Under the pieces are notes generated by a model. It ran no database searches. It saw nothing but the letters and a program-made list of their open reading frames with translations, and was not told the origin of the DNA. Source: a virus. From it: a stretch of DNA of 64,000 nucleotides. A program made the translations under genes and the position numbers. The stretch lies in IMG/VR virus record IMGVR_UViG_3300045988_123629. The stretch is one strand, 5' to 3'. Position 1 is the first letter of the stretch, and each line of letters opens with the position of its first letter. Below, one piece after another: positions 36,875 through 64,000 of the stretch.

Positions 36875-36921
36875 GTATTGATTAAAAAGATTTTATAAAT
36901 AATAGAAAGGAGTCGATTATC

Positions 36922-37503
36922 TTGCCTAATACATTAAATAAATATGTAAAATTTGTCAGAGGTTCTAAAACCGCTTTTGAAAATTTAGGGAATAGAAGAG
37001 ACAATGATACTTTATATTTTATTTATGGGAAAAATGATTCTTCTGGAGAACTTTATTTAGGTAGTCGTCTAATTTGCGGTGGAATTAGTTCCGCGGGTAA
37101 GTTAAGCGATTTAAGTGATATTGTTCTCAATGAAGTTAAAACAAATCAAGTTTTAATTTATGATGAAGAACAAAAGAAATGGGTTAATTAGGGTTTAGAA
37201 AATAATGAGACTTTAATTAATTCTATTGTTGAAAAATTATCTACAGAAGAAAATTTAGCTAAATTAGCTCCTGTTTTTAAGGGCACAGTTCCAGGGTTAG
37301 TTCCAGTTTCTTTACATGAAACTAAAGGAAAGCATATTCTTACCGATGCAGGTACATGGATTGATATGCCAGTAGGAACATTAACTTAGGGAGATATTGA
37401 AACAATTAATATAGCTAATAAATATTTAGTAGATAAAGGTCCTGATAATTTGGTAACTCGTGTTGAAGCAGTCGAACAAACTGTTTCTTGGGCTGATATT
37501 TAA
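36922..37503 (+). CDS. fibre-like protein with conserved N-terminal anchor motif, 193 aa
   Basis: TTG start 9 nt after aaaggag; N-terminus VKFVRGSKTAFENL...DTLYFIYGKN; 2 in-frame TAGs; TAA at 37501. Confidence 0.45.
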
Positions 37504-37517
37504 AGGAGTGAAAAAGA

Positions 37518-47001: not shown

Positions 47002-47010
47002 GGATAAAAT

Positions 47011-47211
47011 ATGGAAAAAGAAATTGTTTATAGATATACGGGTTCTAATGGCATTATTGAATCTTCTATATAGTTAGTAGGAGTGCCTGCGACTAAATTA
47101 TATAGATTAATTGCGGATTATAATAAAAAATTAACGAGAGATGGAAAAGAATTCTTTTCCATCTCTCCCTTAGTTCCCGAGAATGAATTAGAAGAATGGT
47201 ATGAGGTTTAA
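47011..47211 (+). CDS. small 66-aa protein downstream of the giant gene, possibly a fibre assembly factor
   Basis: RBS tgaggataaaatATG; one TAG; TAA then terminator. Confidence 0.35.
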
Positions 47212-47249
47212 ATAGGCCAGAATACATTGATTTAAATATAAAAAAAATT

Positions 47250-47289
47250 AGGTTAAATAGGAAAAGAAACTATTTAACCTAATTTTTTT
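47250..47289 (+). terminator. rho-independent terminator
   Basis: aggttaaatag, loop gaaaagaaa, ctatttaacct, then aattttttt. Confidence 0.65.
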
Positions 47290-47307
47290 AGAAAGGAAGA
47301 GATAGAT

Positions 47308-48993
47308 TTGATAGTTAAAAATGATAGCGTTATCGAACAAGCTAAATGGGAAGAACTTCAAAAGAAAATCAATACTTTAGCTAAAGATAATAAAATAAAA
47401 AACGTTAATGGAAAAATCGTTGAAATAAAATCTATTGAAGACTATTATAGTAACATCACTGGTATCGTTCAAATGAAGAAATTAGATCCATCTGTTCTTC
47501 GTATACCTTTAGATGAGCCTATTATAAATATAAATGCTGATACTCGTCAAATTGAATTAACTAAAGAATTTGGAAAAACTCAATTACTTACTGTTGAAAA
47601 TGATCATTTGGCAGAAACAATTTATTTTCAAATTGATAGATATTTTGATTTACAAGATTTAGCAGCTGATGATATTAAAATTTATATTCAGTATTATTTA
47701 AACGATCAAGTTCAAGGTTATTCTGAAGCTATTTGTCCTGATATCGGGACTGCTGGAAAATTGATTTTTGGATGGCAAATTAGTGATGAAGTGACTAGTG
47801 AATCTGGTACTTTATAGTTTTCTATTATTTTCTTTAAAAAGAATCCAAAAGATAATAATAATTTAATGTATGTATTTAATACATTACCTGCGCAAATGGT
47901 TATTAATAAAACTTTAGATATTGATGAAGATTTAGTCACTGCGCAACCGGTTGATTATTTAACTGGGTATTTAGAAAGTTTAATTGATTCAAAGAAATCC
48001 GCGGGCTTTGGAGTTCCTGATAATGTGGCTTTCTTGACAAGTATTTTAAATAATAAATCAGTTTATTTAACTGGCGATAAATTATATGCTTTAGCTTATA
48101 ATGATACTTTAAACAATCCAGATAATACTACTATTGAATATAAATGGATTTGTAACTATAGAGGAACTAATACTGAATTAAAAAATGGTATCGGCTATGA
48201 ATACAAAAAAATTGTTGATGATAATAGTATTTTTAGTGGAGATATGATTTATAATGAAAAATTAACCTATTTTACTAAAAATGGAGATACTTATATTAAT
48301 AGTAGTAGTGATATTAATCTTGAAAATTACGCTGCTAAAAAGAATGATCTCTATTTAAAAGTTTAGTATTGCGAAGTCGATGGATGCGGAAGTTATAGTG
48401 TGACAGCATTTGGTGCTACTGCAAATCAAGTAAGTAAAGAAGTTAAATGGGCTGGATTAGCTATTTCTGTTGAAGGAATTAGTGAAGATTTTAGAATTGT
48501 TCTTGATCCTTCTCCTGACAATGGATGTTATTATGGTTCTTCTAATATAATTACTGCTACTGGATAGAATGATGAAGGAGTTCAATGCACTTACCTTTGG
48601 ACGAAGAATGGATCTGAATTCAGCACTGAAAAAACTGTAACTTTAACTCAAGAAGATAATTATACTTTAACTGTTCATGGATATAAAAATAAAGATAATA
48701 TAGATTATGGTCCAATTAATTTTACTAATTATTTTGATCCAACTAATTTAAGACCTACTATTGAAAATGATAAAGCAGTAATTGAAAATGAAAAATATAT
48801 TGTTAAGGTCACTAATACTAGTGAATTAGGTAATGGTATTTATGAATATCAATGGAAAAATGCAACTGGAGTTACTTTAAAGACAACTTCTGAAAACTCA
48901 ACAGAAATAGATGAAAATATTACTCAAGGAGCTGTAATTATCAAGAAAGGTGAAAGAAAATCACAACCAGGAACCTTTAAGATTGAGGGGTAA
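47308..48993 (+). CDS. hypothetical tail or baseplate protein, 561 aa (paralog of 48999-49619 in its N-terminal part)
   Basis: TTG start after gaaaggaag; ORFs 47308 and 47866 are in the same frame across TAGs to the TAA at 48991. Confidence 0.45.
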
Positions 48994-50754: not shown

Positions 50755-51165
50755 ATGGATCAAAATTTAATTAATCAATTATTCCAAGTATGTTTGATTC
50801 CTATGCTTGGCGCTTTAACTACTTTTATAGTTATTTGGATTAAAGCAAAAAGCGCGGAATTACAAAAGAAAACTAATAATGATATTTTAAATAAATATGT
50901 GCAAATGGCTACTGACACAATTACTAACTGTGTTATTGCCACTAATCAAACTTATGTAAATTCTCTTAAAGAACAAGGTAAGTTTGATGAAGCTGCTCAA
51001 AAAGAAGCATTTTAGAGAACTTATCAAGCAGTATTGCTTATTTTAAGTGATGATGCTAAAGAGTATTTAAATAATGCTTTTGGTGATTTGAATAAATATT
51101 TACAAGAGAAAATTGAGTCTACAGTAAATAATTATCGTACTCCAAGTAATGATTTAAAACAATAA
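50755..51165 (+). CDS. putative holin (LL-H-like), 136 aa
   Basis: RBS aaaaaggagataatattATG; N-terminal transmembrane helix LIPMLGALTTFIVIWI followed by a charged amphipathic region (QTYVNSLKEQGKFDEAAQKEAF...); one TAG; last gene before the bidirectional terminator. Confidence 0.5.
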
Positions 51166-51212
51166 AAAATAAGGGAGACATTCTTAATTGAATGTCTCCC
51201 TTATTTTTTTTA
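51165..51212. terminator. bidirectional rho-independent terminator between convergent genes
   Basis: aaaaaataagggagacattc, loop ttaatt, gaatgtctccctt, then atttttttt; A-run on the left side and T-run on the right. Confidence 0.7.
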
Positions 51213-51926
51213 TCTAAATGGATTTTTCCATCGTCGATTAATTTCTTCATAGCCTTTTTTAGGAAAATATAAAACTTCACCATTTTTAAAAGTTAAATTA
51301 TCTTTATTCATTATTTTAATTTGATTTAAATTAATAATTAAACTTGGTGGAATAAAGACAAAATCTGGATGATAAACTAAAGTTCCTATATAATTTTCAA
51401 AAGAAGTTTTTAAAGTTTTACTATTTAGAATTTCATTCTCTAAATGACAGCACAAATTTCGTTTTTGAATATCAGCGTATAATACTTTATTTAAATCAAT
51501 TTTTACTTCTCCATTAGGAGTATCTAAATATTTATATTCACGTCTTTTTTCTTCTCTAACTTCATGTAAAATAGAAAAAATTTTTTCTTTATTAACAGGC
51601 TTTTTGACAAAATTAAATGCCTTTACTTCATAAGAAGCTACTCCACAATTTATTTGAGAGGAAACAAAAATTATTTTTCCAATATACCCATTTGTCCTTA
51701 AAAGATGAGCTATTTCAATACCATCCATTTTTTTAAATGTAATCCCTAAAAAAATTGCATCATAATCAATATTAGAGTTAATTAATTTTTCAGGATCAGT
51801 AAATTTATATACATATCCTGGTAAATTAAAATCTTTAAAATACTGATTTATTATTTCTTCCAATGAGTCATTTTGCTAATCGCTATTGTCGCAAACACCT
51901 ACGATAAAAATTTTAATCACCTTCAT
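51210..51926 (-). CDS. LytTR-family response-regulator-like transcription factor with a degenerate receiver domain
   Basis: Minus-strand ATG at 51926 (MKVIKIFIVGVCDNSD), with a TAG in frame to ORF 51210-51863; receiver-like region GKIIFVSSQINC...VKAFNFVKKP and C-terminal LytTR-like region (KIDLNKVLYADIQ...HPDFVFIPPSLIINLNQIK...EVLYFPKKGYEEINRRW); TAA stop; no obvious Shine-Dalgarno. Confidence 0.65.
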
Positions 51927-52058
51927 TTTGTTTATTTTAGAAAAAATTTTTCTATCTTTATATTCTTTCTATATTATAATTATACAAAAATTTTTAAATA
52001 TTGTAAAATAAAAAATTATAAAGTGTCAAATTTATTTAATTTTGAGTAAGTGAAATTT

Positions 52059-52086
52059 TTATCCAAAAAGTGTCAGTAATTATAAT
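52059..52086 (+). promoter_or_regulatory. candidate sigma70 promoter for the island operon
   Basis: ttatcc at 52059-52064, 16-nt spacer, tataat at 52081-52086; about 84-nt leader to the ATG at 52170. Confidence 0.35.
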
Positions 52087-52169
52087 ATATTTACACAAAA
52101 TAAAAGTTATATAATAATGAAAGAAAAAGATAAAACCTTTCATTATTATATTTCTCCGGAGGTAATAAC

Positions 52170-52616
52170 ATGAATACTTATGGTTATCCATAGCAGTAGT
52201 ATCCAATAGGTAATAATAGACCTATTTATGGAACAACTGCTACCCCTGTGATTCAAAACAATACTGCATAGCGAATTAGACCTGTTGCTTCTTTAGAAGA
52301 GGTTCGAGCTATGAATATAGATTTTGATGGTTCAGTTTTTTATTTTCCTGACTATGCTAATCGTAGAATTTATACAAAACAAATAAATATGGATGGAACA
52401 GCTTCTATTAATATGTATGAATTAAAGGAAATCCCGAATTCTTCTTAGCCTAATAATGATTATATAACACGAGAGGAATTTAATACTACCTTAACTTCTA
52501 TTAAAGAAGTTTTTGCATAGATCATGGGATCCAATAACGCGGTTGCGCCGTCCCAAGGGATGGATTAGCCAGCTCAATAGCAACCAGCAGAGAGCAAACC
52601 GCAGTTTAATTTTTAA
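52170..52616 (+). CDS. Gln/Asn-rich hypothetical protein, 148 aa, island gene 1
   Basis: RBS ggaggtaataacATG; 8 in-frame TAGs; product YGYPQQQYPIGNN...PAQQQPAESKPQFNF if TAG is Gln. Confidence 0.45.
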
Positions 52617-52628
52617 GGAGAGTTTCAA

Positions 52629-52877
52629 ATGACACAATCAATGAATCCAATGCAAATTATCGCTATGATTAAAAACGGTCAAAATCCATAGCAATTAGTT
52701 TTATCTATGCTTGAAAATCAAATGGGTGGAACGCCAATGGGCAATAATTTATTACAAATGGCACGGAACGGTCAATCCGATGACATTGAAAAATTTGCTC
52801 GTAATTTGTTTGAATCAAGAGGTTTGAATTTCGATAAAGAATTTAATAGTTTTAAGTCCCAAATGGGGTTTAAATAA
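52629..52877 (+). CDS. small hypothetical protein, 82 aa, island gene 2
   Basis: RBS aaggagagtttcaaATG; one TAG (NPQQLV if TAG is Gln); TAA stop. Confidence 0.45.
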
Positions 52878-52903
52878 ATAAAATTATAGAAAGAGGTTTT
52901 GTT

Positions 52904-53785
52904 ATGTTTAATTACAATTATCCAATGAGCACGCCGAATTATTCATTATCCGATATTGCTGCGGCTTCTGGAAATGGCTATCGTAATAATGATGGCGGAA
53001 TGTGGGGAGACGGAGCATGGTGGATTATTATCCTGTTCTTATTCTGCTTCAATGGTTGGGGCGGTAATGGCTGGGGTAATAATGGTGCTAATGGTTCTGG
53101 TTTCCAAGGCACTACGACTCGAGAAGAATTAAATTATGGTTTTGATATTAGTGATCTTAAATCTGGAGTCAATAGTTTAAATTCTACTCTTTGCAATGGT
53201 TTTAGTGGAGTAAATACTAATCTTTTAAGTGGTTTTGCTAATCTTGCTGAAACTAATAATGCTAATACTCGCACTTTACAGAGTGATATCTGTAATATGG
53301 GTATGAACAATATGCAGAATACCTTTAGTATTACTCAGGCCATTAATGCTGATACTGTAGCAAGTATGCAGAATACTAATAATTTAACTCAGCAATTAAG
53401 TAATATGGCAGCTACTAACGCTCAATGCTGCTGCGAGAATAAACAGTTAATTCAGTCTAGTTTCGCGGATCTTAATTACAATCTTGCTAGTATTGCTTGC
53501 CAGAATCGTCAGGCTACCGTTGATGGTGTCCGCGATATTATTGACAACAATAATGCTAATATGCGTTCTATTCTTGACTTCCTTGTTCAAGATAAAATTG
53601 AGACTCTTACCAGTGAAAATAGCACTCTTAAAAATTAGATTTCTCAAAATCTTCAAAATGCTTATCTTATTGATCAGTTGTCTCCAAAAGCAACTCCTGC
53701 TTATATCGTTGCTAATCCTTATACTGGTGTTAGCTATACCAGTTATGGATGCGGTTATGGTTCAGGATGCGGTTGTAATTCCTGA
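52904..53785 (+). CDS. membrane protein with YjcZ-like Gly/Trp-rich transmembrane N-terminus, Asn/Gln-rich middle and Cys-rich C-terminus, 293 aa, island gene 3
   Basis: RBS gaaagaggttttgttATG; N-terminus GGMWGDGAWWIIILFLFCFNGWGGNGWGNNGANG; CCCENK and C-terminal YGCGYGSGCGCNS; one TAG; TGA stop. Confidence 0.5.
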
Positions 53786-53806
53786 TTGAAGAAAGAAGGT
53801 TAAATT

Positions 53807-54228
53807 ATGGAAATAACGGCTAATGCTTTACAATCAGTTGCTACTGGTTCTAATGTAGTATTCACTAACACAGCTGTTGCTGGAAACTGTTCCATAATGT
53901 ATCGCGAGGGTAGCGGTTTAGTTACCCTCCGCGGTCTTACGAACGGTCAACGCAGAGCTCGCTTCCGCATTTCATTTGGAGGTAATATAGGACTTCCAAC
54001 TACTGGAACTGCGGGTGCTATTTCTTTGGCTATAGCTATTAATGGAGAGCCAGTTACTACTTCTACAATGATTTCCACTCCTACGGCTACTGGATAGTTT
54101 AATAATGTTTCACGTGCTTTATTCCTCGATGTGTTAGGCGGTTGTTGCACTCAAATCAGTATTGAAAACACGAGTTCATAGGCTATTGATGTTGAAAACG
54201 CCAGCTTAATTATCGAGAGAGTGGCATA
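53807..54228 (+). CDS. BclA C-terminal-domain-like (C1q/TNF-like) exosporium-type protein, 140 aa, island gene 4
   Basis: RBS gaaagaaggttaaattATG; NVVFTNTAVAGNCSIMYREGSGLVTLRGL...RFRISFGGNIG...AISLAIAINGEPV pattern; one TAG; TAA stop. Confidence 0.4.
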
Positions 54229-54242
54229 AGGAGGTTTTTTAA

Positions 54243-54788
54243 ATGTGTGATAAATTCCAAGAAATTAAAAAACAATTATTAACTCAAGTAGAAGGCCAAA
54301 TGGCTCATTTAGAATGTGTTGATACAAAGGAAATGGGCGAAGTAATAGATATGATAAAAGACCTTGAAGAGGCTATTTATTATTGCACTATTACTGAAGC
54401 TATGAATGATTTACCTGAAACCACACATTATTATACTGAAAAATATAAATCTCCTCATAAAAAAAGAATCTATAAACCTATGACATATGATTATGATTGG
54501 GAAGATTATGATTATGATGAGCACGAATATGAGATGCCAACGAGTGGAAAATCTCGTGAAACCCATGATAGTAGAGAAGGTCGTAGTGGCGTCCATAGAA
54601 AGATGTATATAGAAGCCAAAGAACTTCATAAAGATAAGAGTGTTCAGATAAAAGAGTTAGATAAGTATCTTCAAGAATTAAGTTCTGATATAGTAGAAAT
54701 GATTGAAGATGCTTCTAATGATGAACGTTCTTATATGGAGAAGAAAATCTAGGCTTTAGCATCTAAAATTGGATCTATGAATGGTTAA
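54243..54788 (+). CDS. acidic Tyr/Asp-rich hypothetical protein, 181 aa, island gene 5
   Basis: RBS aaggaggttttttaaATG; DYDWEDYDYDEHEYE stretch; one TAG; stop overlaps the start of the next gene by 8 nt. Confidence 0.45.
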
Positions 54789-55101
54789 TATTAATAATAG
54801 GAATTGGAGGATACTATTAGTATCTTCCAATCATCCTATGTTAATGCGACCTTCTGGAATATATACTTTAGGTTCTTGTGATGATCCTACTTCAACAATT
54901 TATATTAATGAAAATATTAGCAATAAAAAATTAAAAAAAGTATTAGCACATGAATTAACTCATGCTGCTATTTTTAGCTATGATATTTCATTAAAACCAG
55001 AAGAAGAAGAATTGATTGCAGATTTAGTGGGAACTTATGGCGAAGAAATTATAAATAATACTAATCTTTTATTTAAATAGATAAAAAAAATAAGGGAATG
55101 A
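54781..55101 (+). CDS. mini ImmA/IrrE-like HExxH metallopeptidase, about 106 aa, island gene 6
   Basis: KKVLAHELTHAAIFSYD, where the HExxH is preceded by a basic stretch as in ImmA/IrrE; translationally coupled to 54243-54788; the ORF-track end at 55080 is a TAG and read-through gives a TGA at 55099-55101. Confidence 0.45.
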
Positions 55102-55137
55102 AACTATTTTTGTTTCATTCCCTTATTTTTTTTTATT
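55084..55137. terminator. bidirectional rho-independent terminator
   Basis: aaaaaaaataagggaatgaaac, loop tattttt, gtttcattccctt, then attttttttt. Confidence 0.7.
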
Positions 55138-55564
55138 AGTCTTTAAGCGGTAATTTTAAAGTCCTTTCATAGTACTCTTTAGCCTATCCATTTCCACCTA
55201 AACCTGCATATACTTTAAAGAATTCGACTAACTATTCATACTGCCCTGAAGTCATATATCCTTGTTTTAAGAAACTTTGACATAACTGAATTAATCTAAA
55301 TCTATAAGAAGCAAGAATTATTTCAATATATCTCTCACTAATTTTCTTTTCTTCCAATACGAAAGATCTTAAATTATTTAGATCTTCTTTGATTGGAGCT
55401 ATATGCTCTTCAATTAATTCTTCTAATTGTTCATCTTTCTTTTCTTCTGCCAATTTTTGATACATTTTCATTTGAGTATAAATATATCTACAAAAGGCTA
55501 AGAGGCCAGCAGAAATAAGACCAAAAAATATTTCTATAAAATGCTAGGCAATAAAAGTAGACAT
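55136..55564 (-). CDS. small membrane protein, 142 aa, last gene of the minus-strand module
   Basis: Minus-strand ATG at 55564 after a perfect aaggagg; N-terminal transmembrane helix FIEIFFGLISAGLLAF; ORF 55232-55471 extends through 2 TAGs to the TAA at 55136-55138. Confidence 0.45.
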
Positions 55565-55641
55565 AAAAAATACCTCCTTCCATTAACTTCTAATATATTT
55601 TAAAAAAAAGGAAGGAGGATTATTTATTTAAGGCCTATCTA

Positions 55642-56154
55642 TTATTCCCAATTAAAATTATTATTGGAACTTTCTTTCGTGAAATATGCAGTATATAAAC
55701 ATATAGCATCACATATATCATCATTGGCTTTTATATTATATTTTTGCTATACAAAATCAATATCGGCTTGTTTAAGAGTTTCACGTTTAATACTGCGACC
55801 GGTTTTAATTCCGAGTTTTTTACGCCATTCGCTGGCCTACATCAGCTCTAATGTTTTGGAAGTAAATGAAGAATTAACTTCATGTGCGCCTAACATTACT
55901 GCACCTTGAAGCCACATTAATAAACGTGAAGTGTCAGAATATCCATAAGTTTCAGGATGAACATCTTCCGCTACTATTTTCTCTATATTATATTTTTTTA
56001 CTAATTCAATAATCTAATCTTGTATTTTTTGTATTCTATCTAAATTATTAGAGGAAACTGCGGTTAGCAGTCCATAATTTAACATTTCTCCCTCGTTATT
56101 AGATACACAATAACCAGTAGATTTAGTAGATAAATCTAAAAAGAGGATATTCAA
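55642..56154 (-). CDS. RuvC-like Holliday junction resolvase
   Basis: Minus-strand TTG after aaggaggtaattac; LNILFLDLSTKSTGYCV (N-terminal catalytic Asp block) and ANDDICDAICLY (C-terminal Asp block); 3 in-frame TAGs; TAA stop. Confidence 0.6.
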
Positions 56155-56187
56155 GTAATTACCTCCTTTCTTTAAGGTTTGAGGTAA

Positions 56188-56706
56188 TTACTTTGAAGTT
56201 GAGCCAAATCCTCCAAGGCGGTCACCAGAAGCATTATCGTCTTCGGTGATTAAATAAGGTTTAATAATACCTTGACCAATAACATCACCTTTATGAAGTT
56301 GAATATCAAAAGGAGATAAATTAATCATTTGAAAATAAATATGTCCTTCATTATCAGGATTATTATAATAATCTGCATCAATAATCCCAACGCCATTAGC
56401 AAGAATAAGCCAATATTTTAAAGGGCAAGAACTGCGAACTGACAATTCAAGATATGTATTATCATTTAATTCACATTTAATTCCAGTAGGCACAAGAGTT
56501 GGTTTTGCTTTAAGATTTTTTGTCATATTACCCATATCTTCAAGAGAAATTGAATCAAAATAACGTGTTGGAAATCTATTTAACAAATTCTTGTATGCTG
56601 GAATTACAATATCTTCCGCTACTGTAAAATCGTAGCCTGCGGATTTTGCTGTTTTTCTTACAGGCAAAACCGCATCAGGATATTTGCTTACTCGTTCAAA
56701 CTTCAT
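56188..56706 (-). CDS. dut: dUTP diphosphatase
   Basis: 172 aa; GVGIIDADYYNN and C-terminal GDRLGGFGSTSK motifs of trimeric dUTPases; TAG-free. Confidence 0.8.
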   Translation of the reverse strand: MKFERVSKYPDAVLPVRKTAKSAGYDFTVAEDIVIPAYKNLLNRFPTRYFDSISLEDMGNMTKNLKAKPTLVPTGIKCELNDNTYLELSVRSSCPLKYWLILANGVGIIDADYYNNPDNEGHIYFQMINLSPFDIQLHKGDVIGQGIIKPYLITEDDNASGDRLGGFGSTSK

Positions 56707-56954
56707 TAAAAGCTTACCTCATAATTTACATCAATATTACTAATAGGATCTTTTTCATCATTGAATTTCTTAACAAGAGTGACTTGATACCATTCATCGA
56801 CAATTTCACCCTTAGCCTTTTTTTCTTTCTTTACTGAACTATACTTAGCTAAAATATATTTAGTTTCAGCCTTAGCCTCATCAATAAGCGCGGCCGCACT
56901 CTCTTCATTATCTACACGATAAACTTCTGTAGCACTTACAAGATACTTATTCAT
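56706..56954 (-). CDS. hypothetical protein, 82 aa
   Basis: Start and stop overlap neighbouring genes; TAG-free. Confidence 0.4.
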   Translation of the reverse strand: MNKYLVSATEVYRVDNEESAAALIDEAKAETKYILAKYSSVKKEKKAKGEIVDEWYQVTLVKKFNDEKDPISNIDVNYEVSF

Positions 56955-57214
56955 TAACCTACCTCAACTTTAATTTCTTTTCTATTGGAATAATTTAAAT
57001 TATTACTTTCATAAATTTTTGGAATTAATTCATTAATAAAATCTTCAATACCATATAAACGTATAGTATCAGTATCGTTTTTATAACAAGATGCTACTAA
57101 AACATTTGGAAGATCAGAAATACTACAAGTTCCAATAGTTACTGCCATTCCGTCATCATAAGTTTTAAAAATATTTTGTTCCATTGAAAATAAATTAATA
57201 TTACAAACAATCAT
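56954..57214 (-). CDS. hypothetical protein, 86 aa
   Basis: Tightly packed in the operon; TAG-free. Confidence 0.4.
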   Translation of the reverse strand: MIVCNINLFSMEQNIFKTYDDGMAVTIGTCSISDLPNVLVASCYKNDTDTIRLYGIEDFINELIPKIYESNNLNYSNRKEIKVEVG

Positions 57215-57748
57215 TTAATTACACTCCACAATACCAGCATCATATTGGAATAAATAAAAACAATAAGATTCATTATCAATATTTATCCAAATTTCAATAG
57301 CGCCATTATTATTTTTTTCCCAACCAACAATACTTCCTAATTCTTGACAAAGTATAATTACCATACTCGCTAAAGAACCAGTTGAAATAATTGGAGGAAT
57401 ATTTTTGTGAAAAATGGTATAATAATTATAATCTTTACATAATAACATATAATACATTCCATATTCACTCATTTCATTAATACTACTCATTAATTTATTT
57501 AATTCTTCTTTATTAATCGGATCCATTTGTATCATAATATTTTTATTAAAATCATATAAATTCATTCCAGTTTGAAATGTAGTAGAATTATCTGACAAAT
57601 TATTAGTAGTAGTTCCTATCATTACCCATTCATTTCCAGTGTAACAATATTGTTTCTGATCTTCACCAGAAATGGCAATAGTTCCTTCTTCGAATTTACG
57701 AGGAGAATTATATAATTCTCCCATCGTATTAGTATAAAAAACATTCAT
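57215..57748 (-). CDS. hypothetical protein, 177 aa
   Basis: RBS ataggagattatataacaATG on the minus strand; TAG-free. Confidence 0.45.
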   Translation of the reverse strand: MNVFYTNTMGELYNSPRKFEEGTIAISGEDQKQYCYTGNEWVMIGTTTNNLSDNSTTFQTGMNLYDFNKNIMIQMDPINKEELNKLMSSINEMSEYGMYYMLLCKDYNYYTIFHKNIPPIISTGSLASMVIILCQELGSIVGWEKNNNGAIEIWINIDNESYCFYLFQYDAGIVECN

Positions 57749-57781
57749 TGTTATATAATCTCCTATCTATTTCATAGAAAA

Positions 57782-57810
57782 ATTATATCACAAATTTTCT
57801 TTTTTGTCAA
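57782..57810 (-). promoter_or_regulatory. consensus sigma70 promoter (TTGACA, 17-nt spacer, TATAAT) on the minus strand
   Basis: Reverse complement reads ttgaca aaaaagaaaatttgtga tataat; about 25 nt upstream of the RBS of 57748. Confidence 0.55.
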
Positions 57811-57829
57811 GTTTTAAATTAATAATGTT

Positions 57830-58282
57830 CTAATTGCGAGAACCGCGCAAAGGTAAAGTAATATCTCTTTCCTTTTGGATATATGGTCCATCAATTAGAT
57901 AATCAGCAGTTTTTAGTATATTCTTAATTCTAATATTATTACTATTCTTTAAATCATCATAAACATATCCAGTCCATATATATATTTTAATGTTTGGATA
58001 TATTTTTTTAATTTCAGTAATAACTAAATTAGTTAAAAATTCGTTTTCAGGGCAGAGAGGTTCTCCACCCATAATACAAAGATTACGCGCAACATTATTC
58101 GCATTAATAGCAGTAATTAATTCATCTAATACTTTATTAGTAAATTCTTTGCCACCATTAAAATCCCACGTTTCAGGATTCTGACATCCTTCACAATGGT
58201 GCGGGCACCCTTGTGTAAAAAATGATACACATACTCCGGGTGCCGCCGCCAAATCATTCTTTATAATTCCTGCATATTTCAT
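57830..58282 (-). CDS. nrdG: anaerobic ribonucleotide reductase activating protein (radical SAM)
   Basis: CVSFFTQGCPHHCEGCQN Cx3Cx2C cluster near the N-terminus; start overlaps the nrdD stop (ATGA); TAG-free. Confidence 0.8.
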   Translation of the reverse strand: MKYAGIIKNDLAAAPGVCVSFFTQGCPHHCEGCQNPETWDFNGGKEFTNKVLDELITAINANNVARNLCIMGGEPLCPENEFLTNLVITEIKKIYPNIKIYIWTGYVYDDLKNSNNIRIKNILKTADYLIDGPYIQKERDITLPLRGSRN

Positions 58283-60600
58283 TCTAATGCTCCTGTATGT
58301 TTTACTCTTGCTTCAACTTCTTTTTGTTTACCCCAGTTAAAAGCAGTTTTATAATTGCCTGTAAGATAGCCAGTTACACGACGTAATTGCTGAATATTAT
58401 GGCTTCCACACACTGGGCAAGAATCATTAAATTCATCACAATAACCGCATTCAAGGCAAGTGTCATTAGGAACATTTACTGCGAAATAAGGAATATCATG
58501 ATCCATAGCATAATTAACAATAGTTTCAAGAGCATCAATATTATGTTTTACAGTAGAATCAAGTTCAACATAAGTGATACATCCTGCGGATGAATAACCA
58601 GTCAGCTCAGATTCAATATCAATTTTTTCAAATGGACTCATTTCTTTCCACACCGGAACATGAATACTGTTAGTGAAAAATTCTCTATCACTAACATTAG
58701 GGATAATTCCATACCTTTCTTTAAATTTCGTCATAGCTGTATAACAAAGATTTTCTGCTGGAGTATAGTATACACCAAAATTTAATTTATATTTTTCTTT
58801 GTATTCAGCGCATCTTTCTTTAAATAATTGTTCAATTTGTTTAGCTAATTCCATTCCTTCTGAAGTGGTGTGGTCTTTACCAATAAGAATTTGAAGAGTT
58901 TCTGCCAAACCTAACTGACCAATAGCAAGAGTTCCATGCTTAAGAGCAGAACGAATTCCCTCTTCTGGGATATAGCCTGCCATAACGTTATTTTCATACA
59001 TAAATTTCGCGGAACCTGGATCTTGAGAACAAATCCACTCAAAACGCTCCATTAATTGAATACGCGCTTCATTGATTTTTCTATCGAGTAAAGACATAAA
59101 TCGTTCTACGCCAATTTTAGTCCGTTCTTCTTGAGACAATGATTTATAGTCATCCCAATTATCATTTTCATTTAGAGTAACGGCCATCATCGCTAGAGTA
59201 GGAAGAATAATAGTAACTGGACAAATATTTCCACGTCCATCTTTAAGCTGGCCGAATCCATTAATATCCCATCCATTCGCGGTTCTGCATCCCATCGTAG
59301 AAAAATAAGTGCGAGGATCATTAATATCATATCCAGCATTACCGGACCAATCAACATTTGCATAATTAGGATAAAGGCGTCTTGCGGTGCTTTCTAATGC
59401 TAATCTATATAAATCATAGTTAGGATCACCAGGTTTGCGGTTAACACCTTTCATACATTGGAAAATTCCACAAGGGAAAATCGAAGTTTTATGAAGTTTA
59501 CCAAGACCTTCAATAGAAACATCTAATAACGCCTTAGTCACCATTCTGCCTTCTGGTAAGGTGCAAGTGCCATAATTAATACTCGTAAATGGTAATTGGT
59601 TACCGCTACGAGACTGTAAAGTATTAAGATTATGGTAAAGACCTTCTGCAGCTTGATGAGTCTCACGGACAGTCATATCATAGGCATAATCATAAGCCTT
59701 TTTATAAGTTTCAGAAGCTAATAAATAACTAACTGCATTTTCTTCTTCAGTTTTTGTTGTGGCATTTCGGTATGATTGAATAGGCATTTTTGATGTGTCT
59801 AAATCTCCTAATACATTATTAACAATATAGTTATAATCATTAGGACTATATAAGTATTTAACTCCATCTTTAAAATGCTTCCAAAAAGATTTTCTTACAT
59901 AAGGAACCATAGTCCAATCTAAGTGAGTGGCACTAACTCCGCCAAACTAACAAAGACTTTGGATTTGAAAAATAACAGCAATTAATTGAAATGCTGTATT
60001 AATTGAACCCGCAGGACGAACATCTGCTTGACGAGTATTAAATCCATTAGCAAGCAAATTATCAAAAGGAATACTTAAACAGTTATGAGAACCAACATAA
60101 TAAGAATCAAGATCGTGAGTATATATCATATTATCAATATGATTCTTACGAGCCATAGGGGAAAGTAAGTAATCAAGTGCAAGTTGTTTGGTGACAACAC
60201 CACTTGCTTCACCTATACGACCACCGAATGAATGTTCATCAACATTAGCATTTTGATTTTTTACGTTATTACCATCGAGCTTTTCACGAATTGCTTTAAT
60301 AAAATCATCTTTTTTATTACGAGCAACTTCTTTTTTATATCTATATCTGATATAAGCACGAGCAACATCGCGTCGCTCAGAACGCATTAAATAATCTTCA
60401 ATCCAATCTTGAAGATCTTCTACTCCAACACTTCCATCGGGGAAATGATTTATTTGTCTTTCAATGTCTTCCGCGATATCTTTTGCGGTATCATCTTCAT
60501 ATAGTTTACCATCAACTTCAATAAATGCTTTATTTATTGCGTTAATAATTTTCTTTTTATTAAATTGAGTTATACTTCCATCACGTTTAATAATATACAA
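58279..60600 (-). CDS. nrdD: anaerobic ribonucleoside-triphosphate reductase
   Basis: ORFs 59947-60600 (ATP-cone-like MYIIKRDGSITQFNKKKIINAI) and 58279-59910 are in the same frame, joined across in-frame TAGs; C-terminal CGYCDEFNDSCPVCG Zn ribbon and RVTGYL glycyl-radical motif; TTG start 9 nt after ggagg. Confidence 0.85.
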
Positions 60601-60618
60601 TTTTTTTTGCCTCCAAAC

Positions 60619-60659
60619 TAAATATAGTAGTTCTTTTAGAATATTCTACTATATTTAGG
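60619..60659. repeat. perfect 13-bp inverted repeat with 15-nt spacer, directly upstream of the nrdD RBS
   Basis: ctaaatatagtag, spacer of 15 nt, then ctactatatttag. Confidence 0.6.
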
Positions 60660-60795
60660 TTTTGTTAGTAAATAATTATTTATCTTGGTCCATTTCCGCC
60701 CATTGCTTAACTTTTTGAGTTAAAAGATTAACAATATTATTATAATCTTCTAATGTTTCATTTGTCACAACATTGCACTTAATATCATTCATTAG

Positions 60796-61251
60796 CTAAA
60801 ATTGAATTTCATCAGTAGTATATCTTCTAATGATTTCATTTACATCAGGATTTTTTTCTCTATTTAATTGCCTAATTAAGCGTGTCTTTCCTTTAGCGGT
60901 AATATAATATATCTCCAATTCAATTCTATCATCTTTAAGAAGACTTATAATTCCTTCAGGATTAAAAACACCAATATTAACTTTACTATCAGACAAACTA
61001 TCAATACTTGTGCCATAATACCAATTATTAAAAGAAGTGGTTTCTAACATTTTATTTTCATCAATTAAAGTTAAAAACTGGTCATCTGAAACAAAATGAT
61101 AATTTTTGTCTGCTATTTCTTTTTCACGCTTCGGGCGCGTAGTGTGGCTTATAATAGGATTTAAATATTCCTCTAAGTGGGAAAAGGTAGCCATCATTAG
61201 GCTATCTTTTCCCGCACCAGATTTTCCACATAATGCAATAATTTTATACAT
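60796..61251 (-). CDS. guanylate-kinase-like nucleoside monophosphate kinase
   Basis: P-loop ALCGKSGAGKDS and SHTTRPKREKE...YHFV, as in guanylate kinases; the ATG at 61251 (aggagg 11 nt upstream) overlaps the DnaE stop as ATGTATAA; an alternative in-frame ATG at 61281 has no RBS. Confidence 0.6.
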   Translation of the reverse strand: MYKIIALCGKSGAGKDSLMMATFSHLEEYLNPIISHTTRPKREKEIADKNYHFVSDDQFLTLIDENKMLETTSFNNWYYGTSIDSLSDSKVNIGVFNPEGIISLLKDDRIELEIYYITAKGKTRLIRQLNREKNPDVNEIIRRYTTDEIQF

Positions 61252-64000
61252 CTTCTTCAATTCCTCCTTGATAACGAGCATCTTTTAAAACTAAATCGCC
61301 ATTAGATAAAATTTCATCAATTTTATATAATTGATGCCCTCCAGAAGAAGCATATTTTTTTGACATGAAATTATCTCCATTGCGGATTCCAGAGACTACA
61401 ATCATATTTCCGCGATTAAACCAAGATTTTTCAACAATATGTTTGGTTCCATCTGCACCGCGCTCTGAAATTTGTTTATCAAACAAACTAAAATATTCTT
61501 TTCTAAATTTTACTTCTACAGGACCAGTAGTAGTAAGGATAGTTACGGTACTTTTAGTTTTATTTTTGGCAATACAAGTTCCGCAAATTTTAAATAACTT
61601 ATAAATATGAATAGTATGATTTCCTTTAGTAAAACTTCTATCAATTATTGGGTCTTCTGGAAGTTTAAAGAAATCTACAAATCCATATTTATCATTGTTA
61701 ATATTGTTTAATTCATGAGTATGATAATAATAACAAAGAACTTCCATTTCCCAAGCGGATAGATTATTTTTATTAGCGTATTTATCCCAATCATCTTTAA
61801 ATATTTTTATATTCAGATTATTCAAAATTTCATCTTTATTATTAGCAATCCAAGTGCGAAATATATCCATCCACTTTTGGTATATACCATTCCAAATATT
61901 TTCACTTAAAGAATAATTAGTTCCATCAAATTGAATATTATTATCTTCTCCAATTTCTACTAAGAAATTAATAGCTCGTTCATCAAGTTGATATAAACCA
62001 TTATTTTTTGTAGTTTTACAAATTGCTTTTAAATATCTATTAAATTCATAAATACGGCGAGCCATAATTTGATTTTCATTTTCTTCTGGAAGAAGATCAT
62101 ACTTCATAAGTCCGCCCATATTTTGAAGAGTAATTCTTTTCTTTTTGTCGCAAGTTTCCCAAATATACCAAATCATTAATTCTTTTCTATCCATCATATT
62201 ATCAAAAGCTCCGCCTTTAATAAGAGAAATCATAGCTTGTTTACCTGGCTTAATACGATATAAAAATTCTTTAGGATTTGAATAAGGGCGATTGGCAATG
62301 ATTGTATTAACTAATTCATCACCAACATTTAGCATACCTTTTAGTCCAAAAAGGATTTTATTATTTTCAATATCAGGGGCAAATCCAAATTTAGATTTGT
62401 TAATATCAGGAAGACCTACTTCAATTCCTGCTTTTTGAATGTCACTAATAGCCTTGGCAATTTTTCCATAATCAGTAGCCGCGGTTTTGCGGATTTTGCC
62501 ACTTTTGTCAGGAAGATCTTCAAATGTTACTCCATTAGCTAAATCATCGCCTTCAGGAGCATAAATATCGACAATCTCTTCTTCGCTATTATCTTCAAGG
62601 GAACCACTATTAACAATTAAACAAGCGGTATCCCAATAGATAGGATTAAAATGAATTACTAAGTAAATCATTTGAATTGCTACAAATGAATAAGGAAGGG
62701 AATGGTTAAGGCTAAATGCATATCCTAATTGAGGAGCAACTGCAATTTCCCAAAAGTATTCAGCAGATTTTTCATTATCAAATTTACTAAATACTTGTTC
62801 TCTCAGTTGTGGAATTTTAGCCATTTGCTTTTTAGCAACAATCTTACGCGCAGTATTAGCTTCACCAAGAGTAAAATGAGCTACATCCATAAGGATTTCC
62901 ATCATTTGCTCTTGAATAGGACAACATCCATAATATTTATCACAATGCTTATGCATCTTATCAATTAATTCTTGTGGAAGATGCTGAGCCTTCATTTCAT
63001 CATCAAATACTTTAATACCCGAATGTTGAATGCGATAATATCTATCTTGCTGTGATTCCTTGCCTTTTTCAGACATAAGACGCATCATAGCATTTGCCGC
63101 CGTCATTTCCATAGGGTCTTGGGGTTTAAGACGTTTCGCAATTGCTAAACCAACTCCCGTAGAAAATTGGAATACATCTAATACATCACCCGCGGCAAGG
63201 TGGTCCCAAATTGCTTGGTCAGTTGTATCTATTACTTCTGGATGAATATATTTATTATAGAATTCTCGTAAAGATAATTCTGGAATTTGTTTATCTTTTA
63301 GAAGTAATTGATAACAAGTAATAATTTTGTCAGAAGCTTCAGTTACAAGGAAGTCATATTTTGTATCTCCCGCGGCTTCCGCTTTATGAAGATCCCAACA
63401 AGTAATCATATCTCCACTAGGAGTTCTCATAAATGATGCTGTATCAAATGGATCGTCACCATACAAAATAACGCCAGAAGCATGAGAAGAACGTTTATTA
63501 ACCATTCCTTCAATATATACAATAATATTCAAAAGACCAGGATATTGGTTTACTTCTCGAATAAATGCTTGAACGGGTTTACGGTCTTTTTCTTCATTAC
63601 CATAAATAACATCATGGATAGGCCATAAAAATCCACGCTCTTGGGGAATTAATGAAGACATATATTGAGCATTATCAACATCAATTCCTTCTGGAAATTC
63701 TTCACTTCTATATCCACGACAAGCAGTTAAAATACTTTGTTTAGTGCCTTCAGTTCCAAATGTAGCAACTTGAACCAATCCCAATTCTCCGCGTTCTTTT
63801 CTAATTGCTTTAAAAATTGCGGGACGCTTACTTGGGGCAAGGTCAATATCAATATCGGGCAATTCCGCGCGCTCCTTATTTAAAAATCTCCAATAAGGAA
63901 GTCCCCAACGAATTGGGTCTAATTGAGTAATACCTAAAAGATAATTAGATAAAAAGCCAGTCGCAGAACCACGTCCAGGACCTACAATACTTCCACATTC
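61244..64000 (-). CDS. dnaE: DnaE-type DNA polymerase III alpha subunit, C-terminal two thirds; the 5' end lies beyond the window
   Basis: Frame is open to the window edge; ...VGPGRGSA... and LPDIDIDL palm-domain motifs; VATFGTEGTK, HASGVILYGD and KYDFLV blocks colinear with E. coli DnaE; TAG-free over more than 900 codons. Confidence 0.8.
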   Translation of the reverse strand, partial: ECGSIVGPGRGSATGFLSNYLLGITQLDPIRWGLPYWRFLNKERAELPDIDIDLAPSKRPAIFKAIRKERGELGLVQVATFGTEGTKQSILTACRGYRSEEFPEGIDVDNAQYMSSLIPQERGFLWPIHDVIYGNEEKDRKPVQAFIREVNQYPGLLNIIVYIEGMVNKRSSHASGVILYGDDPFDTASFMRTPSGDMITCWDLHKAEAAGDTKYDFLVTEASDKIITCYQLLLKDKQIPELSLREFYNKYIHPEVIDTTDQAIWDHLAAGDVLDVFQFSTGVGLAIAKRLKPQDPMEMTAANAMMRLMSEKGKESQQDRYYRIQHSGIKVFDDEMKAQHLPQELIDKMHKHCDKYYGCCPIQEQMMEILMDVAHFTLGEANTARKIVAKKQMAKIPQLREQVFSKFDNEKSAEYFWEIAVAPQLGYAFSLNHSLPYSFVAIQMIYLVIHFNPIYWDTACLIVNSGSLEDNSEEEIVDIYAPEGDDLANGVTFEDLPDKSGKIRKTAATDYGKIAKAISDIQKAGIEVGLPDINKSKFGFAPDIENNKILFGLKGMLNVGDELVNTIIANRPYSNPKEFLYRIKPGKQAMISLIKGGAFDNMMDRKELMIWYIWETCDKKKRITLQNMGGLMKYDLLPEENENQIMARRIYEFNRYLKAICKTTKNNGLYQLDERAINFLVEIGEDNNIQFDGTNYSLSENIWNGIYQKWMDIFRTWIANNKDEILNNLNIKIFKDDWDKYANKNNLSAWEMEVLCYYYHTHELNNINNDKYGFVDFFKLPEDPIIDRSFTKGNHTIHIYKLFKICGTCIAKNKTKSTVTILTTTGPVEVKFRKEYFSLFDKQISERGADGTKHIVEKSWFNRGNMIVVSGIRNGDNFMSKKYASSGGHQLYKIDEILSNGDLVLKDARYQGGIEEDV

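What the first reader, a model, noticed from the sequence alone, without database searches (positions are those of the whole stretch)
51210..51926. Phage-encoded LytTR response regulator whose phospho-acceptor Asp appears replaced by Gly
The C-terminal half matches the LytTR DNA-binding domain. The N-terminal half aligns colinearly with AgrA-type receiver domains: ...GKIIFVSSQ... matches ...GNIIFVTSHS..., and VKAFNFVKKP matches VAAMDFIFK. The position corresponding to the phosphorylated Asp (FLDI in AgrA) reads IFLGI. No histidine kinase gene is nearby. This looks like an orphan, phosphorylation-independent LytTR regulator, divergently oriented from the island operon. It carries one recoded TAG and lacks an obvious Shine-Dalgarno.
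Basis: partly seen in the sequence, partly recalled or inferred. Interest (0 to 1): 0.7.

Follow-up and report, generated by a model that had tools for sequence, protein, structure and literature searches.

The report
Phage response regulator lacking phospho-acceptor Asp
A large gut phage that reads the stop codon TAG as glutamine carries a well-conserved AgrA/ComE-type transcription factor whose phosphorylation site is replaced by glycine, so it probably works without a kinase; this kind of protein is known but has not been studied in phages.

Summary
Window 51210-51926 (-) encodes a 238-aa protein with one in-frame TAG at codon 17, read as Gln. It has a CheY-like receiver domain followed by a LytTR DNA-binding domain. 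The model has pLDDT 95, and full-length ComE is the best structural match. Gly61 sits at the phospho-acceptor position, where 121 of 137 homologues have Asp. The second metal-binding Asp is Asn14. Ser89 and Lys109 are kept. This makes it an aspartate-less pseudo-receiver.

The gene is under purifying selection (dN/dS 0.10-0.17). It keeps the same position, between the holin gene and a divergent six-gene operon, in every lineage of this ~110-200 kb TAG-recoded phage family that I recovered. Orthologues have either Gly or Asp at the acceptor site. Two near-identical genomes differ by GGT versus GAT there. No histidine kinase was found in the window or beside any orthologue.

A conserved box lies exactly 37 nt upstream of the operon's probable -10 in six lineages. 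It forms an AAGTG direct-repeat pair 20 nt apart, which is LytTR-operator-like geometry.

My best reading is a kinase-independent local regulator of the divergent operon and of its own promoter. The DNA target and the regulatory role of the early TAG are inferred, not shown. Novelty is modest: a new member of a known kind.

The parts
51210..51926 (-). Response-regulator gene. It is 238 codons from ATG 51926 and stops with TAA at 51210-51212. It is the only minus-strand gene inside the plus-strand block 336-55101.
   Evidence: dN/dS is 0.10-0.17 against relatives. There are 7424 HMMER hits, mostly ~240-aa LytTR-type regulators. PHROG 8810 matches at 6e-25 over the full length.
51876..51878 (-). 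In-frame TAG at codon 17, at the N-terminus of helix alpha1, read as Gln.
   Evidence: A TAG is kept at this codon in L012 and L018, and 1-3 codons away in L022, L026 and L027.
51543..51908 (-). Pseudo-receiver (REC) domain, residues 7-128. Key residues are Asp13, Asn14, Gly61, Ser89 and Lys109.
   Evidence: Pfam PF00072 scores 34.4 bits. The AlphaFold model has a (beta-alpha)5 fold with pLDDT 95. Foldseek matches receiver domains with TM 0.8-0.89.
51744..51746 (-). Codon 61, GGG = Gly, at the position of the phosphorylated Asp.
51225..51536 (-). LytTR DNA-binding domain, residues 131-234.
   Evidence: Pfam PF04397 scores 20.3 bits, below the gathering score of 22.6. 89 of 126 homologues match LytTR. 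The family profile hits full-length ComE at 5e-21 and the LytTR domain 3d6w at 1e-12. Foldseek matches AgrA LytTR with TM 0.78-0.80. dN/dS is 0.06.
51909..51924 (-). SD-like GAAGGTGA (51924-51917) followed by an in-frame ATT (51911-51909). This is a possible true start, homologous to the ATG of the Asp-type orthologues.
   Evidence: In the 137-sequence alignment, Met of 90 homologues aligns with residue 6.
51164..51209 (.). Bidirectional terminator hairpin with a 20-bp stem, between the convergent holin and regulator genes.
50755..51165 (+). Holin gene, convergent with the regulator. It is the neighbour on this side in every lineage.
   Evidence: phrog_13712 matches at 6.7e-38. Synteny is shown.
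51979..52029 (-). Two overlapping sigma-70-like promoters for the regulator gene: TTTACA-N17-TATAAT (52007..51979) and TTGACA-N18-TACAAT (52029..52000). Box 3, AAAGTGTCA at 52020-52028, lies within this stretch.
   Evidence: These are consensus matches only.
52044..52077 (+). Candidate operator. Box 2 (GAGTAAGTGAAAT, 52044-52056) and box 1 (CAAAAAGTGTCAG, 52065-52077) are AAGTG direct repeats 20 nt apart, about -71 and -51 from the operon's inferred transcription start.
   Evidence: The box 1 core lies exactly 37 nt upstream of TTATATA in six lineages, while the sequence between them diverges. AAGTG-N15-AAGTG occurs once in 64 kb. The 11-mer TGACACTTTWT occurs only at boxes 1 and 3.
52107..52151 (+). 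Conserved TTATATAAT, the probable -10 of the divergent operon. It is embedded in a 15-bp perfect inverted repeat (52109-52123 / 52137-52151) just upstream of the GGAGG of the first operon gene.
   Evidence: The arms differ in sequence but still pair in other lineages.
52170..55101 (+). Divergent six-gene operon of 148, 82, 293, 140, 181 and 106 aa. It is TAG-rich and of unknown function. The last gene has an HExxH metallopeptidase-like motif. This is the proposed target.
   Evidence: It is syntenic in all lineages. Parts of it are deleted together with the regulator's 5' end in L011 and L017.

Best explanation
The gene encodes a phage transcription factor derived from an AgrA/ComE-type (REC plus LytTR) two-component response regulator. 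Its receiver domain has become a pseudo-receiver. It keeps the fold, the Ser/Lys switch residues and the aromatic residue at K-3. It has lost the phosphorylated Asp (Gly61) and the second metal-binding Asp (Asn14), so no histidine kinase can switch it.

I propose that it acts constitutively once made, probably as a dimer. It would bind the AAGTG direct repeats (boxes 1 and 2, 52044-77) that sit at about -51 and -71 of the divergent operon 52170-55101, and box 3 beside its own promoter. In this way it would control that TAG-rich operon and itself.

Control would then lie in how much protein is made rather than in phosphorylation. The gene has a weak initiation signal (no SD before the ATG, or an ATT start). 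It also has a TAG at codon 17 that can only be passed once the phage has established TAG-to-Gln decoding.

Shown here: the domain architecture, the residue replacements, purifying selection, conserved synteny and the conserved, precisely positioned upstream box. Inferred: DNA binding to that box, activation rather than repression, kinase independence, and gating by the TAG.
For: **Architecture and fold.**

**Active-site residues.** Gly61, Asn14, Ser89 and Lys109 come from the 137-sequence alignment and the PDB alignments.

**Selection.** dN/dS is 0.10-0.17 overall, 0.06 in the LytTR half and 0.27 in the REC half.

**Conserved position.** The gene sits in the same place in six further lineages with 33-68% identity.

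**Acceptor site under relaxed constraint.**
- Orthologues carry Gly (window, L012, L018, L022, L042, L026) or Asp (L043, L027, L045, L047).
- Other catalytic residues are also degenerate. Thr is Gly in L045 and L047. In L026 the Asp pair is Ser-Tyr and Lys is Tyr.
- L042 and L043 differ by GGT versus GAT, among only 14 differences in 770 nt.

**No kinase.** None was found among about 40 window proteins or in up to 8 kb of flank in L018, L022 and L026. The nearest cellular homologue with context, P0013, sits next to an AgrC-like HATPase_c_5 kinase.

**Candidate operator.**
- The box 1 core is exactly 37 nt from the conserved TTATATA in six lineages.
- The AAGTG pair 20 nt apart occurs only here in the window.
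- A 9-bp repeat plus a 12-bp spacer is the classical LytTR site layout (established knowledge for AgrA, ComE and PlnC).

**Link to the operon.** Natural deletion variants remove the regulator's 5' end together with the first operon genes.

**TAG usage.** TAG makes up 36% of Gln-type codons in the structural block, and there are 7 TAGs in the first operon gene.
Against: - No binding or expression data exist.
- Boxes 2 and 3 are poorly conserved outside the window, L012 and L018 lineages.
- A k-mer conservation scan of the AT-rich spacer did not clearly stand out from shuffles.
- Box 3 overlaps a perfect TTGACA and may simply be a -35 element.
- In the orphan LytTR regulator CdtR, Asp61Ala abolishes function (PMC6699598). 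Loss of the Asp is therefore not automatically compatible with activity.
- The Asp in L043 could mean that phosphorylation still matters in some members.
- The clustering of early TAG sites is not statistically convincing. The probability is 0.21 for any 4-codon window, and 0.017 only if the first 20 codons are specified after the fact.
- The suppressor tRNA is not in the window.
Confidence: 0.55

Rival explanations
1. Host-directed regulator or decoy. The pseudo-receiver keeps its dimerisation or kinase-docking surfaces. The protein would then act on the host rather than on phage promoters. It could form heterodimers with a host AgrA/ComE-like regulator, titrate its kinase, or occupy host LytTR operators, so as to rewire quorum-sensing, bacteriocin or autolysis genes during infection.
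For: The closest cellular relatives are AgrA/AgrC-type systems. The REC half is still under purifying selection (dN/dS 0.27), with Ser89, Phe106 and Lys109 retained. The regulator evolves faster than all its neighbours, 33-47% identity against 55-83%, as expected for a host-interaction protein. Earlier authors suggested that phage LytTR genes might 'listen in' on agr signalling (PMC3901668).
Against: The host is unknown, so no host target can be named. The fixed position next to a conserved promoter box points to a local target. So does co-deletion with the adjacent operon.
Confidence: 0.2
2. The protein is still a phosphorylation-controlled regulator. A host kinase or a small phospho-donor would modify another residue (for example Asp56 or Asp13), or the Asp-bearing variants would be the functional form and Gly61 a low-activity allele.
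For: Asp-type orthologues exist in the same position (L045, L047, L027), and there is an apparent Gly-to-Asp change in L043. Ser89, Lys109 and Asp13 are retained. CdtR needs its Asp (PMC6699598).
Against: Gly61 is fixed in at least four deep lineages under purifying selection. The direct metal ligand DD2 is Asn. Position D+4, usually Pro, is Lys. No kinase was found. L026 has in addition lost both acidic residues and the Lys.
Confidence: 0.1
3. The gene is a decaying, dispensable remnant with no current function, or only an N-terminally truncated product is made from TTG 51863.
For: The start signal is poor and there is an early TAG. Three of 17 close relatives carry a frameshift or a deletion: L016, L011 and L017. 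The 216-aa homologue P0005, as it stands in the protein collection, begins at the ATG after the TAG.
Against: dN/dS is 0.10-0.17, and 0.06 in the DNA-binding half. The gene is intact in all other lineages over deep divergence. Strand beta1 upstream of the TAG keeps the h-h-h-x-h-C-D pattern in all lineages. It is the central strand of the confidently predicted fold.
Confidence: 0.07

Closest known systems
AgrA / ComE / LytR / BtsR-type response regulators (REC plus LytTR; PDB 4cbv, 3bs1-type LytTR domains)
   Same: The two-domain architecture, length (~240 aa) and fold are the same. ComE is the best structural and profile match. The best NCBIfam hits are LytR, BtsR and AgrA. The gene lies next to a divergent promoter region with short direct repeats, as in agr P2/P3.
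   Different: It lacks the phospho-acceptor Asp and the second metal ligand. It has no cognate kinase. It scores far below every equivalog cut-off. It is encoded by a phage and translated with TAG read as Gln.
Aspartate-less receivers / pseudo-receivers (for example RitR, ChxR, HP1043-type, CmrT; PMC4395418, PMC12632262)
   Same: Software recognises the domain as a receiver, but catalytic residues are missing. DD2 is non-acidic, as in ~80% of pseudo-receivers. D+4 is not Pro. The protein is presumably active without Asp phosphorylation.
   Different: The output domain is LytTR rather than OmpR or NarL type. The replacement is Gly, which is 11% of ALRs, and no characterised example existed in 2015 (PMC4395418). 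It is viral rather than cellular.
CdtR of Clostridioides difficile (orphan LytTR response regulator)
   Same: It is an orphan REC plus LytTR regulator in a low-GC Gram-positive setting, encoded next to the genes it controls.
   Different: CdtR keeps Asp61, and Asp61Ala is non-functional (PMC6699598). The phage protein has Gly at that position and is nevertheless under purifying selection.
PHROG 8810 and other phage LytTR-domain genes (Pseudomonas phages Lu11, PMG1 and D3 noted in PMC3901668; 'two-component response regulator' of Clostridioides phages LIBA2945 and LIBA6276)
   Same: These are phage-borne members of the same superfamily. PHROG 8810 matches the full length at 6e-25.
   Different: All are uncharacterised. 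The GenBank phage hits are only 20-31% identical. None is reported to lack the Asp or to come from a recoded phage.
Stop-codon recoding as a post-transcriptional timer in gut phages (Borges et al., bioRxiv 10.1101/2021.08.26.457843)
   Same: The phage is TAG-recoded, with TAG enriched in the structural and lysis-proximal genes and depleted in the replication genes. The regulator lies beside the holin.
   Different: That work concerns lysis and structural genes. A transcription factor carrying a single 5'-proximal TAG was not described there (no hit for 'response regulator' or 'LytTR').

Membership tests
CheY-like receiver domain (PF00072) | (beta-alpha)5 fold and a profile score above Pfam's gathering threshold | tested here: met
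   The score is 34.4 bits against a threshold of 30.2. The model has pLDDT 95.4, with strands 7-12, 37-42, 57-61, 84-89 and 105-108. Foldseek gives TM 0.8-0.89 to receiver domains.
CheY-like receiver domain (catalytically competent) | Phospho-acceptor Asp at the C-terminal end of beta3 | tested here: not met
   The residue is Gly61 (GGG, 51744-51746). Asp occupies this column in 121 of 137 homologues. It aligns to the Asp of MrkE and 6m8o.
CheY-like receiver domain (catalytically competent) | Acidic pair after beta1 that binds Mg2+ | tested here: not met
   Asp13 is kept, but the second position is Asn14, where the consensus is Asp in 109 of 137.
CheY-like receiver domain (catalytically competent) | Thr/Ser at the end of beta4 and Lys at the end of beta5 | tested here: met
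   Ser89 and Lys109-Pro110 are present, and the aromatic Phe106 is at K-3.
Pseudo-receiver / aspartate-less receiver | Recognised as a receiver but lacking one or more of the five catalytic residues, including the Asp | tested here: met
   Definitions are from PMC4395418 and PMC12632262.
LytTR DNA-binding domain (PF04397) | Profile score above Pfam's gathering threshold | tested here: not met
   The score is 20.3 bits against 22.6, E 6e-4, covering profile positions 4-97 of 98.
LytTR DNA-binding domain (PF04397) | Homology and beta-rich LytTR fold | tested here: met
   89 of 126 full-length homologues match PF04397, best E 3e-21. The family profile hits ComE over residues 2-235 at E 5e-21 and the LytTR domain 3d6w at 1e-12. 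Foldseek matches AgrA LytTR 4g4k and 4xqj with TM 0.78-0.80.
LytTR regulators | Binds pairs of ~9-bp direct repeats about 21 bp apart, upstream of target promoters | not testable with these tools
   A candidate site exists: AAGTG repeats 20 nt apart, with box 1 at a fixed 37 nt from the -10 region. Binding was not tested.
Two-component system | Cognate histidine kinase encoded with the regulator | tested here: not met
   No HisKA or HATPase family was found among about 40 window proteins or in the flanks of orthologues. The rest of the ~190-kb genome was not available.
LytTR regulatory systems (HdrRM / BrsRM type; PMC6193735 was only listed by a search, not read; the defining feature is from my own knowledge) | LytTR regulator without a receiver domain, co-transcribed with a membrane inhibitor | tested here: not met
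   A full receiver-fold domain is present. The gene is monocistronic between a terminator and a divergent promoter.

The most novel reading that the evidence does not exclude
A family of large TAG-recoded phages has turned a captured two-component response regulator into a kinase-free transcription factor. Its production, not its phosphorylation, would be the signal. A 5'-proximal TAG and a near-cognate start codon would make the protein appear only after the phage has switched the cell to TAG=Gln decoding. It would then turn on a TAG-rich operon beside the lysis cassette. This would link the genetic-code switch directly to a transcriptional switch.
Probability: 0.15. Interest if true: 0.65.

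Novelty: new member of a known kind. Interest (0 to 1): 0.4.

Why it matters
Pseudo-receivers make up several percent of all receiver domains, yet how they are controlled is largely unknown (PMC12632262). No Gly-type example had been characterised when the class was surveyed (PMC4395418).

This family is a natural experiment. Orthologous regulators sit in one fixed genomic context and carry either Asp or Gly at the acceptor site. This includes a near-isogenic GGT/GAT pair, and the candidate operator is only a few dozen bases away. That makes it straightforward to test what a receiver domain does once phosphorylation is lost.

It would also be one of the first defined transcription factors in the uncultivated, alternatively coded gut phages. 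If the early TAG matters, it would be a concrete case of recoding controlling a regulator rather than a lysis or structural gene.

Tried and rejected
1. **Truncated start at TTG 51863 (217 aa, from the code-11 ORF list).** Rejected, because strand beta1 upstream of the TAG is conserved in all lineages and is needed for the fold.
2. **Longer N-terminal extension, as in the database protein P0002.** Rejected, because L012 has an in-frame TAA there.
3. **Pseudogene.** Rejected by dN/dS.
4. **Significance of the early-TAG cluster.** A site-placement simulation gave p = 0.21, so I do not claim it.
5. **K-mer conservation scan of the intergenic region.** It was confounded by AT-richness and was not decisive.
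6. **Looking for further copies of the box in the window.** There are none beyond chance, so there is no evidence for a wider regulon here.
7. **Rfam scan of 51000-52400.** It gave only sub-threshold chance hits on the terminator hairpin.
8. **tRNA scan for the suppressor.** There are no tRNAs in the window.
9. **Host identification through genome contigs.** The only hit is a 164-kb contig labelled as a Mollicutes MAG, which is most likely the phage itself.
10. **GenBank phages.** No relative is closer than ~31% identity.
11. **Function of the divergent operon.** Pfam, PHROGs and NCBIfam gave nothing beyond a weak HExxH peptidase match for the last gene.

Full report
**1. What is at the coordinates**

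The minus strand of 51210-51926 carries an ORF of 238 codons that ends in TAA. It has one internal TAG at codon 17 (51876-51878).

The window as a whole is a TAG-recoded phage:
- Reading TAG through turns fragmented ORFs into genes of up to 2779 aa, and nearly doubles the length covered by ORFs of at least 100 codons.
- The 46 genes contain 276 in-frame TAGs, and all 46 end in TAA or TGA.
- In two close relatives, a second TAG replaces a Gln codon of the same gene: IIN*YF versus IINQYF.
- PHROG matches identify a terminase, a holin, a DNA polymerase and a resolvase. Pfam adds a dUTPase and a radical-SAM protein. Relatives of this gene lie on IMG/VR contigs of 110-196 kb.
- Most genes have GGAGG-type ribosome-binding sites. 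That fits a Bacillota-like host, but the host was not identified.

**2. Is it a LytTR response regulator?**

Yes, by several independent tests.
- On its own, the sequence passes Pfam's receiver threshold (34.4 bits against 30.2). It narrowly misses the LytTR threshold (20.3 against 22.6).
- An exhaustive HMMER search with the 98%-identical database copy P0001 found 7424 relatives. Most are ~240 aa and align end to end.
- Of 126 of these relatives, 116 match Response_reg and 89 match LytTR.
- A profile built from them hits full-length ComE of S. pneumoniae (E 5e-21, residues 2-235) and an isolated LytTR domain.
- An AlphaFold model of P0001, made with that alignment, has mean pLDDT 95.4. It shows a (beta-alpha)5 receiver (residues 7-128) followed by a beta-rich domain (131-234).
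- Foldseek ranks ComE first and matches the AgrA LytTR domains with TM about 0.8.
- The best NCBIfam hits are LytR, BtsR and AgrA. All fall far below the equivalog cut-offs, so the protein is not an orthologue of any named regulator.
- PHROG 8810 (function unknown) matches the full length at 6e-25.

**3. Is the acceptor Asp really missing?**

Yes.
- PDB alignments place DAIFLGITF opposite DAIFLDINI (MrkE) and DIIFLDVNL (6m8o).
- In the 137-sequence alignment, the column of Gly61 is Asp in 121 sequences.
- In the model, Gly61 ends strand beta3.

The other catalytic positions are as follows:

| Position | Residue here | Consensus |
|---|---|---|
| First acidic residue (DD1) | Asp13 | Asp |
| Second acidic residue, direct metal ligand (DD2) | Asn14 | Asp |
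| End of beta4 | Ser89 | Thr/Ser |
| End of beta5 | Lys109-Pro110 | Lys-Pro |
| D+4 | Lys65 | Pro |
| K-3 | Phe106 | aromatic |

This is the typical signature of a pseudo-receiver as summarised by Bourret et al. (PMC12632262). Maule et al. found Gly in 11% of aspartate-less receivers. They noted that it was the only common substitution without a characterised example (PMC4395418).

**4. Evolutionary context**

The gene is a fixed part of a conserved module. In six further lineages it is always the lone gene on its strand. These lineages are:
- L018, 68% identical;
- L022, L042 and L043, about 47%;
- L026, 36%;
- L045 and L044, 33%;
- L047, 35%.

In each case the gene is convergent with the holin gene. 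It is divergent from the same operon of about six small genes.

The regulator is the fastest-evolving gene of the module. In L026, for example, it is 36% identical while its neighbours are 53-83% identical.

It is nevertheless under clear purifying selection. dN/dS is 0.10-0.17 overall, 0.06 in the LytTR half and 0.27 in the receiver half.

The acceptor residue is not constant among orthologues:
- Gly occurs in the window, L012, L018, L022, L042 and L026.
- Asp occurs in L045, L047, L027 and L043.
- L042 and L043 differ at only 14 of 770 nucleotides, one of which is GGT versus GAT at this codon.
- Other catalytic residues also drift. Thr is Gly in L045 and L047. In L026 the acidic pair is Ser-Tyr and the Lys is Tyr.

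The simplest reading is that phosphorylation chemistry is not under selection in this phage family, whereas the fold and the DNA-binding domain are.

No kinase was found beside any orthologue or among about 40 proteins of the window. A cellular homologue, P0013 (31% identical, Asp-type), is followed by an AgrC-like HATPase_c_5 kinase.

Three of 17 close relatives are damaged:
- L016 has a frameshift.
- L011 has a clean deletion of window-equivalent 51866-54499.
- L017 has a clean deletion of window-equivalent 51365-52983.

Both deletions remove the regulator's 5' end, the intergenic region and the first operon genes together. The module therefore seems dispensable, at least in some populations, and is lost as a unit. 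Assembly artefacts are not excluded.

**5. Start codon and the TAG**

The 20 nt before ATG 51926 contain no Shine-Dalgarno sequence. Comparison between lineages suggests why.
- The Asp-type orthologues have AAAGGAGG followed by ATG, giving MLSIAI(Y/F)DD.
- At exactly the homologous codon, the window, L012 and L018 have ATT preceded by GAAGGTGA.
- At that codon L022 has ATA preceded by AAAGGAGG.
- The window's ATG corresponds to TTG in L012 and to TGG in L018.
- In 90 of 137 homologues the initiator Met aligns with residue 6.

The true start may therefore be ATT 51911, a weak initiator. This is inferred, not shown.

A TAG lies within four codons of the beta1-alpha1 junction in all Gly-type lineages and in L027. 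It falls at three different codons. It is the only TAG in the window's gene and in L012's.

This is suggestive of a gate that requires TAG suppression, in the spirit of Borges et al. (10.1101/2021.08.26.457843). My simulation gives p = 0.21 for such clustering anywhere in the gene, so I treat it only as a hypothesis.

TAG makes up 36% of Gln-type codons in the structural block and 11% in the replication block. The first gene of the divergent operon has 7 TAGs in 148 codons.

**6. Candidate DNA target**

The 243-bp spacer contains the following elements:
- consensus-like promoters for the regulator gene;
- a conserved TTATATAAT (52107-52115), probably the -10 of the operon;
- a conserved box, CAAAAAGTGTCAG (52065-52077).

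The GTGT(C/G) core of that box lies exactly 37 nt upstream of TTATATA in six lineages, although the sequence between them is unrelated.

A second AAGTG lies 20 nt further upstream (21 nt in L018). A third copy, the exact 9-mer AAAGTGTCA, sits beside the regulator's promoter.

AAGTG-N15-AAGTG occurs once in the 64-kb window, at this spot. From the shuffle mean of 0.58 matches per window, I estimate about 0.002 expected by chance in these 243 bp.

Direct repeats of about 9 bp with centres about 21 bp apart, placed just upstream of a weak -35, are the established layout of AgrA, ComE and PlnC sites. This comparison rests on my own knowledge and was not tested here.

I therefore propose that the protein binds here and controls the divergent operon and itself.

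Weak points of this proposal:
- Boxes 2 and 3 degrade in distant lineages.
- Box 3 overlaps a perfect TTGACA.
- The spacer is very AT-rich, which weakens conservation statistics.

**7. Comparison with what is known, and verdict**

The protein works like, and descends from, AgrA/ComE-type regulators. It fails the catalytic membership tests for a phosphorylatable receiver, so it belongs with the aspartate-less pseudo-receivers.

Phage-borne LytTR genes have been noticed before (PMC3901668; PHROG 8810), but none has been characterised. In the orphan LytTR regulator CdtR, removing the Asp kills function (PMC6699598). The phage lineage must therefore have compensated for the loss or use the protein differently.

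The finding is a solid but modestly novel example of a known class. Three features make it a good experimental system: Gly and Asp orthologues in one fixed context, an apparent non-AUG start plus an early TAG, and a precisely positioned candidate operator.

Interest 0.4.

Noticed in passing
L011 (lacks window-equivalent 51866-54499) and L017 (lacks 51365-52983): Two independent clean deletions in related phage contigs. Each removes the regulator's 5' part, the intergenic region and the first genes of the divergent operon together. L016 has a frameshift in the regulator.
   Followed up: partly
L042 versus L043, codon homologous to window 51744-51746: Near-identical phage genomes (14 differences in 770 nt) differ by GGT (Gly) versus GAT (Asp) at the phospho-acceptor codon.
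   Followed up: partly
window 52109-52151: A 15-bp perfect inverted repeat (ATATAATAATGAAAG / CTTTCATTATTATAT, 13-nt loop). It overlaps the probable -10 and precedes the GGAGG of gene 52170. Other lineages keep a hairpin here with different arm sequences. It could be a 5'-UTR stabiliser, an attenuator or an operator.
   Followed up: partly
window 336-55101 (+) versus 55136-63661 (-): TAG makes up 35.6% of Gln-type codons in the structural and late block, but only 10.6% in the replication block (DNA polymerase, NrdD-like, dUTPase, resolvase). This matches the early/late code partition proposed for recoded phages.
   Followed up: partly
window 54781-55101 (+): The last gene of the divergent operon encodes a 106-aa protein with an HELTH (HExxH) motif. 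It gives weak matches to DUF2268, Peptidase_M78 (IrrE-like) and SprT-like metallopeptidases.
   Followed up: no
window 52904-53785 and 53807-54229 (+): These are conserved operon proteins of unknown function. The 293-aa protein has a Gly/Trp-rich membrane segment and a Cys-rich tail (phrog_16490). The 140-aa protein (phrog_20016) is the best-conserved gene of the module, at up to 85% identity between lineages.
   Followed up: no
L051 = CAMELE010000001.1 (163,874 bp): A contig deposited as part of an 'uncultured Mollicutes bacterium' MAG carries a 95%-identical copy of the regulator. It is probably this phage's genome binned as a bacterium.
   Followed up: no
window 36835-38432 and 47002-47472: My TAG-aware ORF list left these stretches without any called gene of at least 70 codons. 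I did not examine them.
   Followed up: no
window 1-64000: No tRNA gene, and so no suppressor tRNA, lies in this 64-kb window even though TAG is heavily used as a sense codon. The decoding machinery must be encoded elsewhere in the ~190-kb genome.
   Followed up: no
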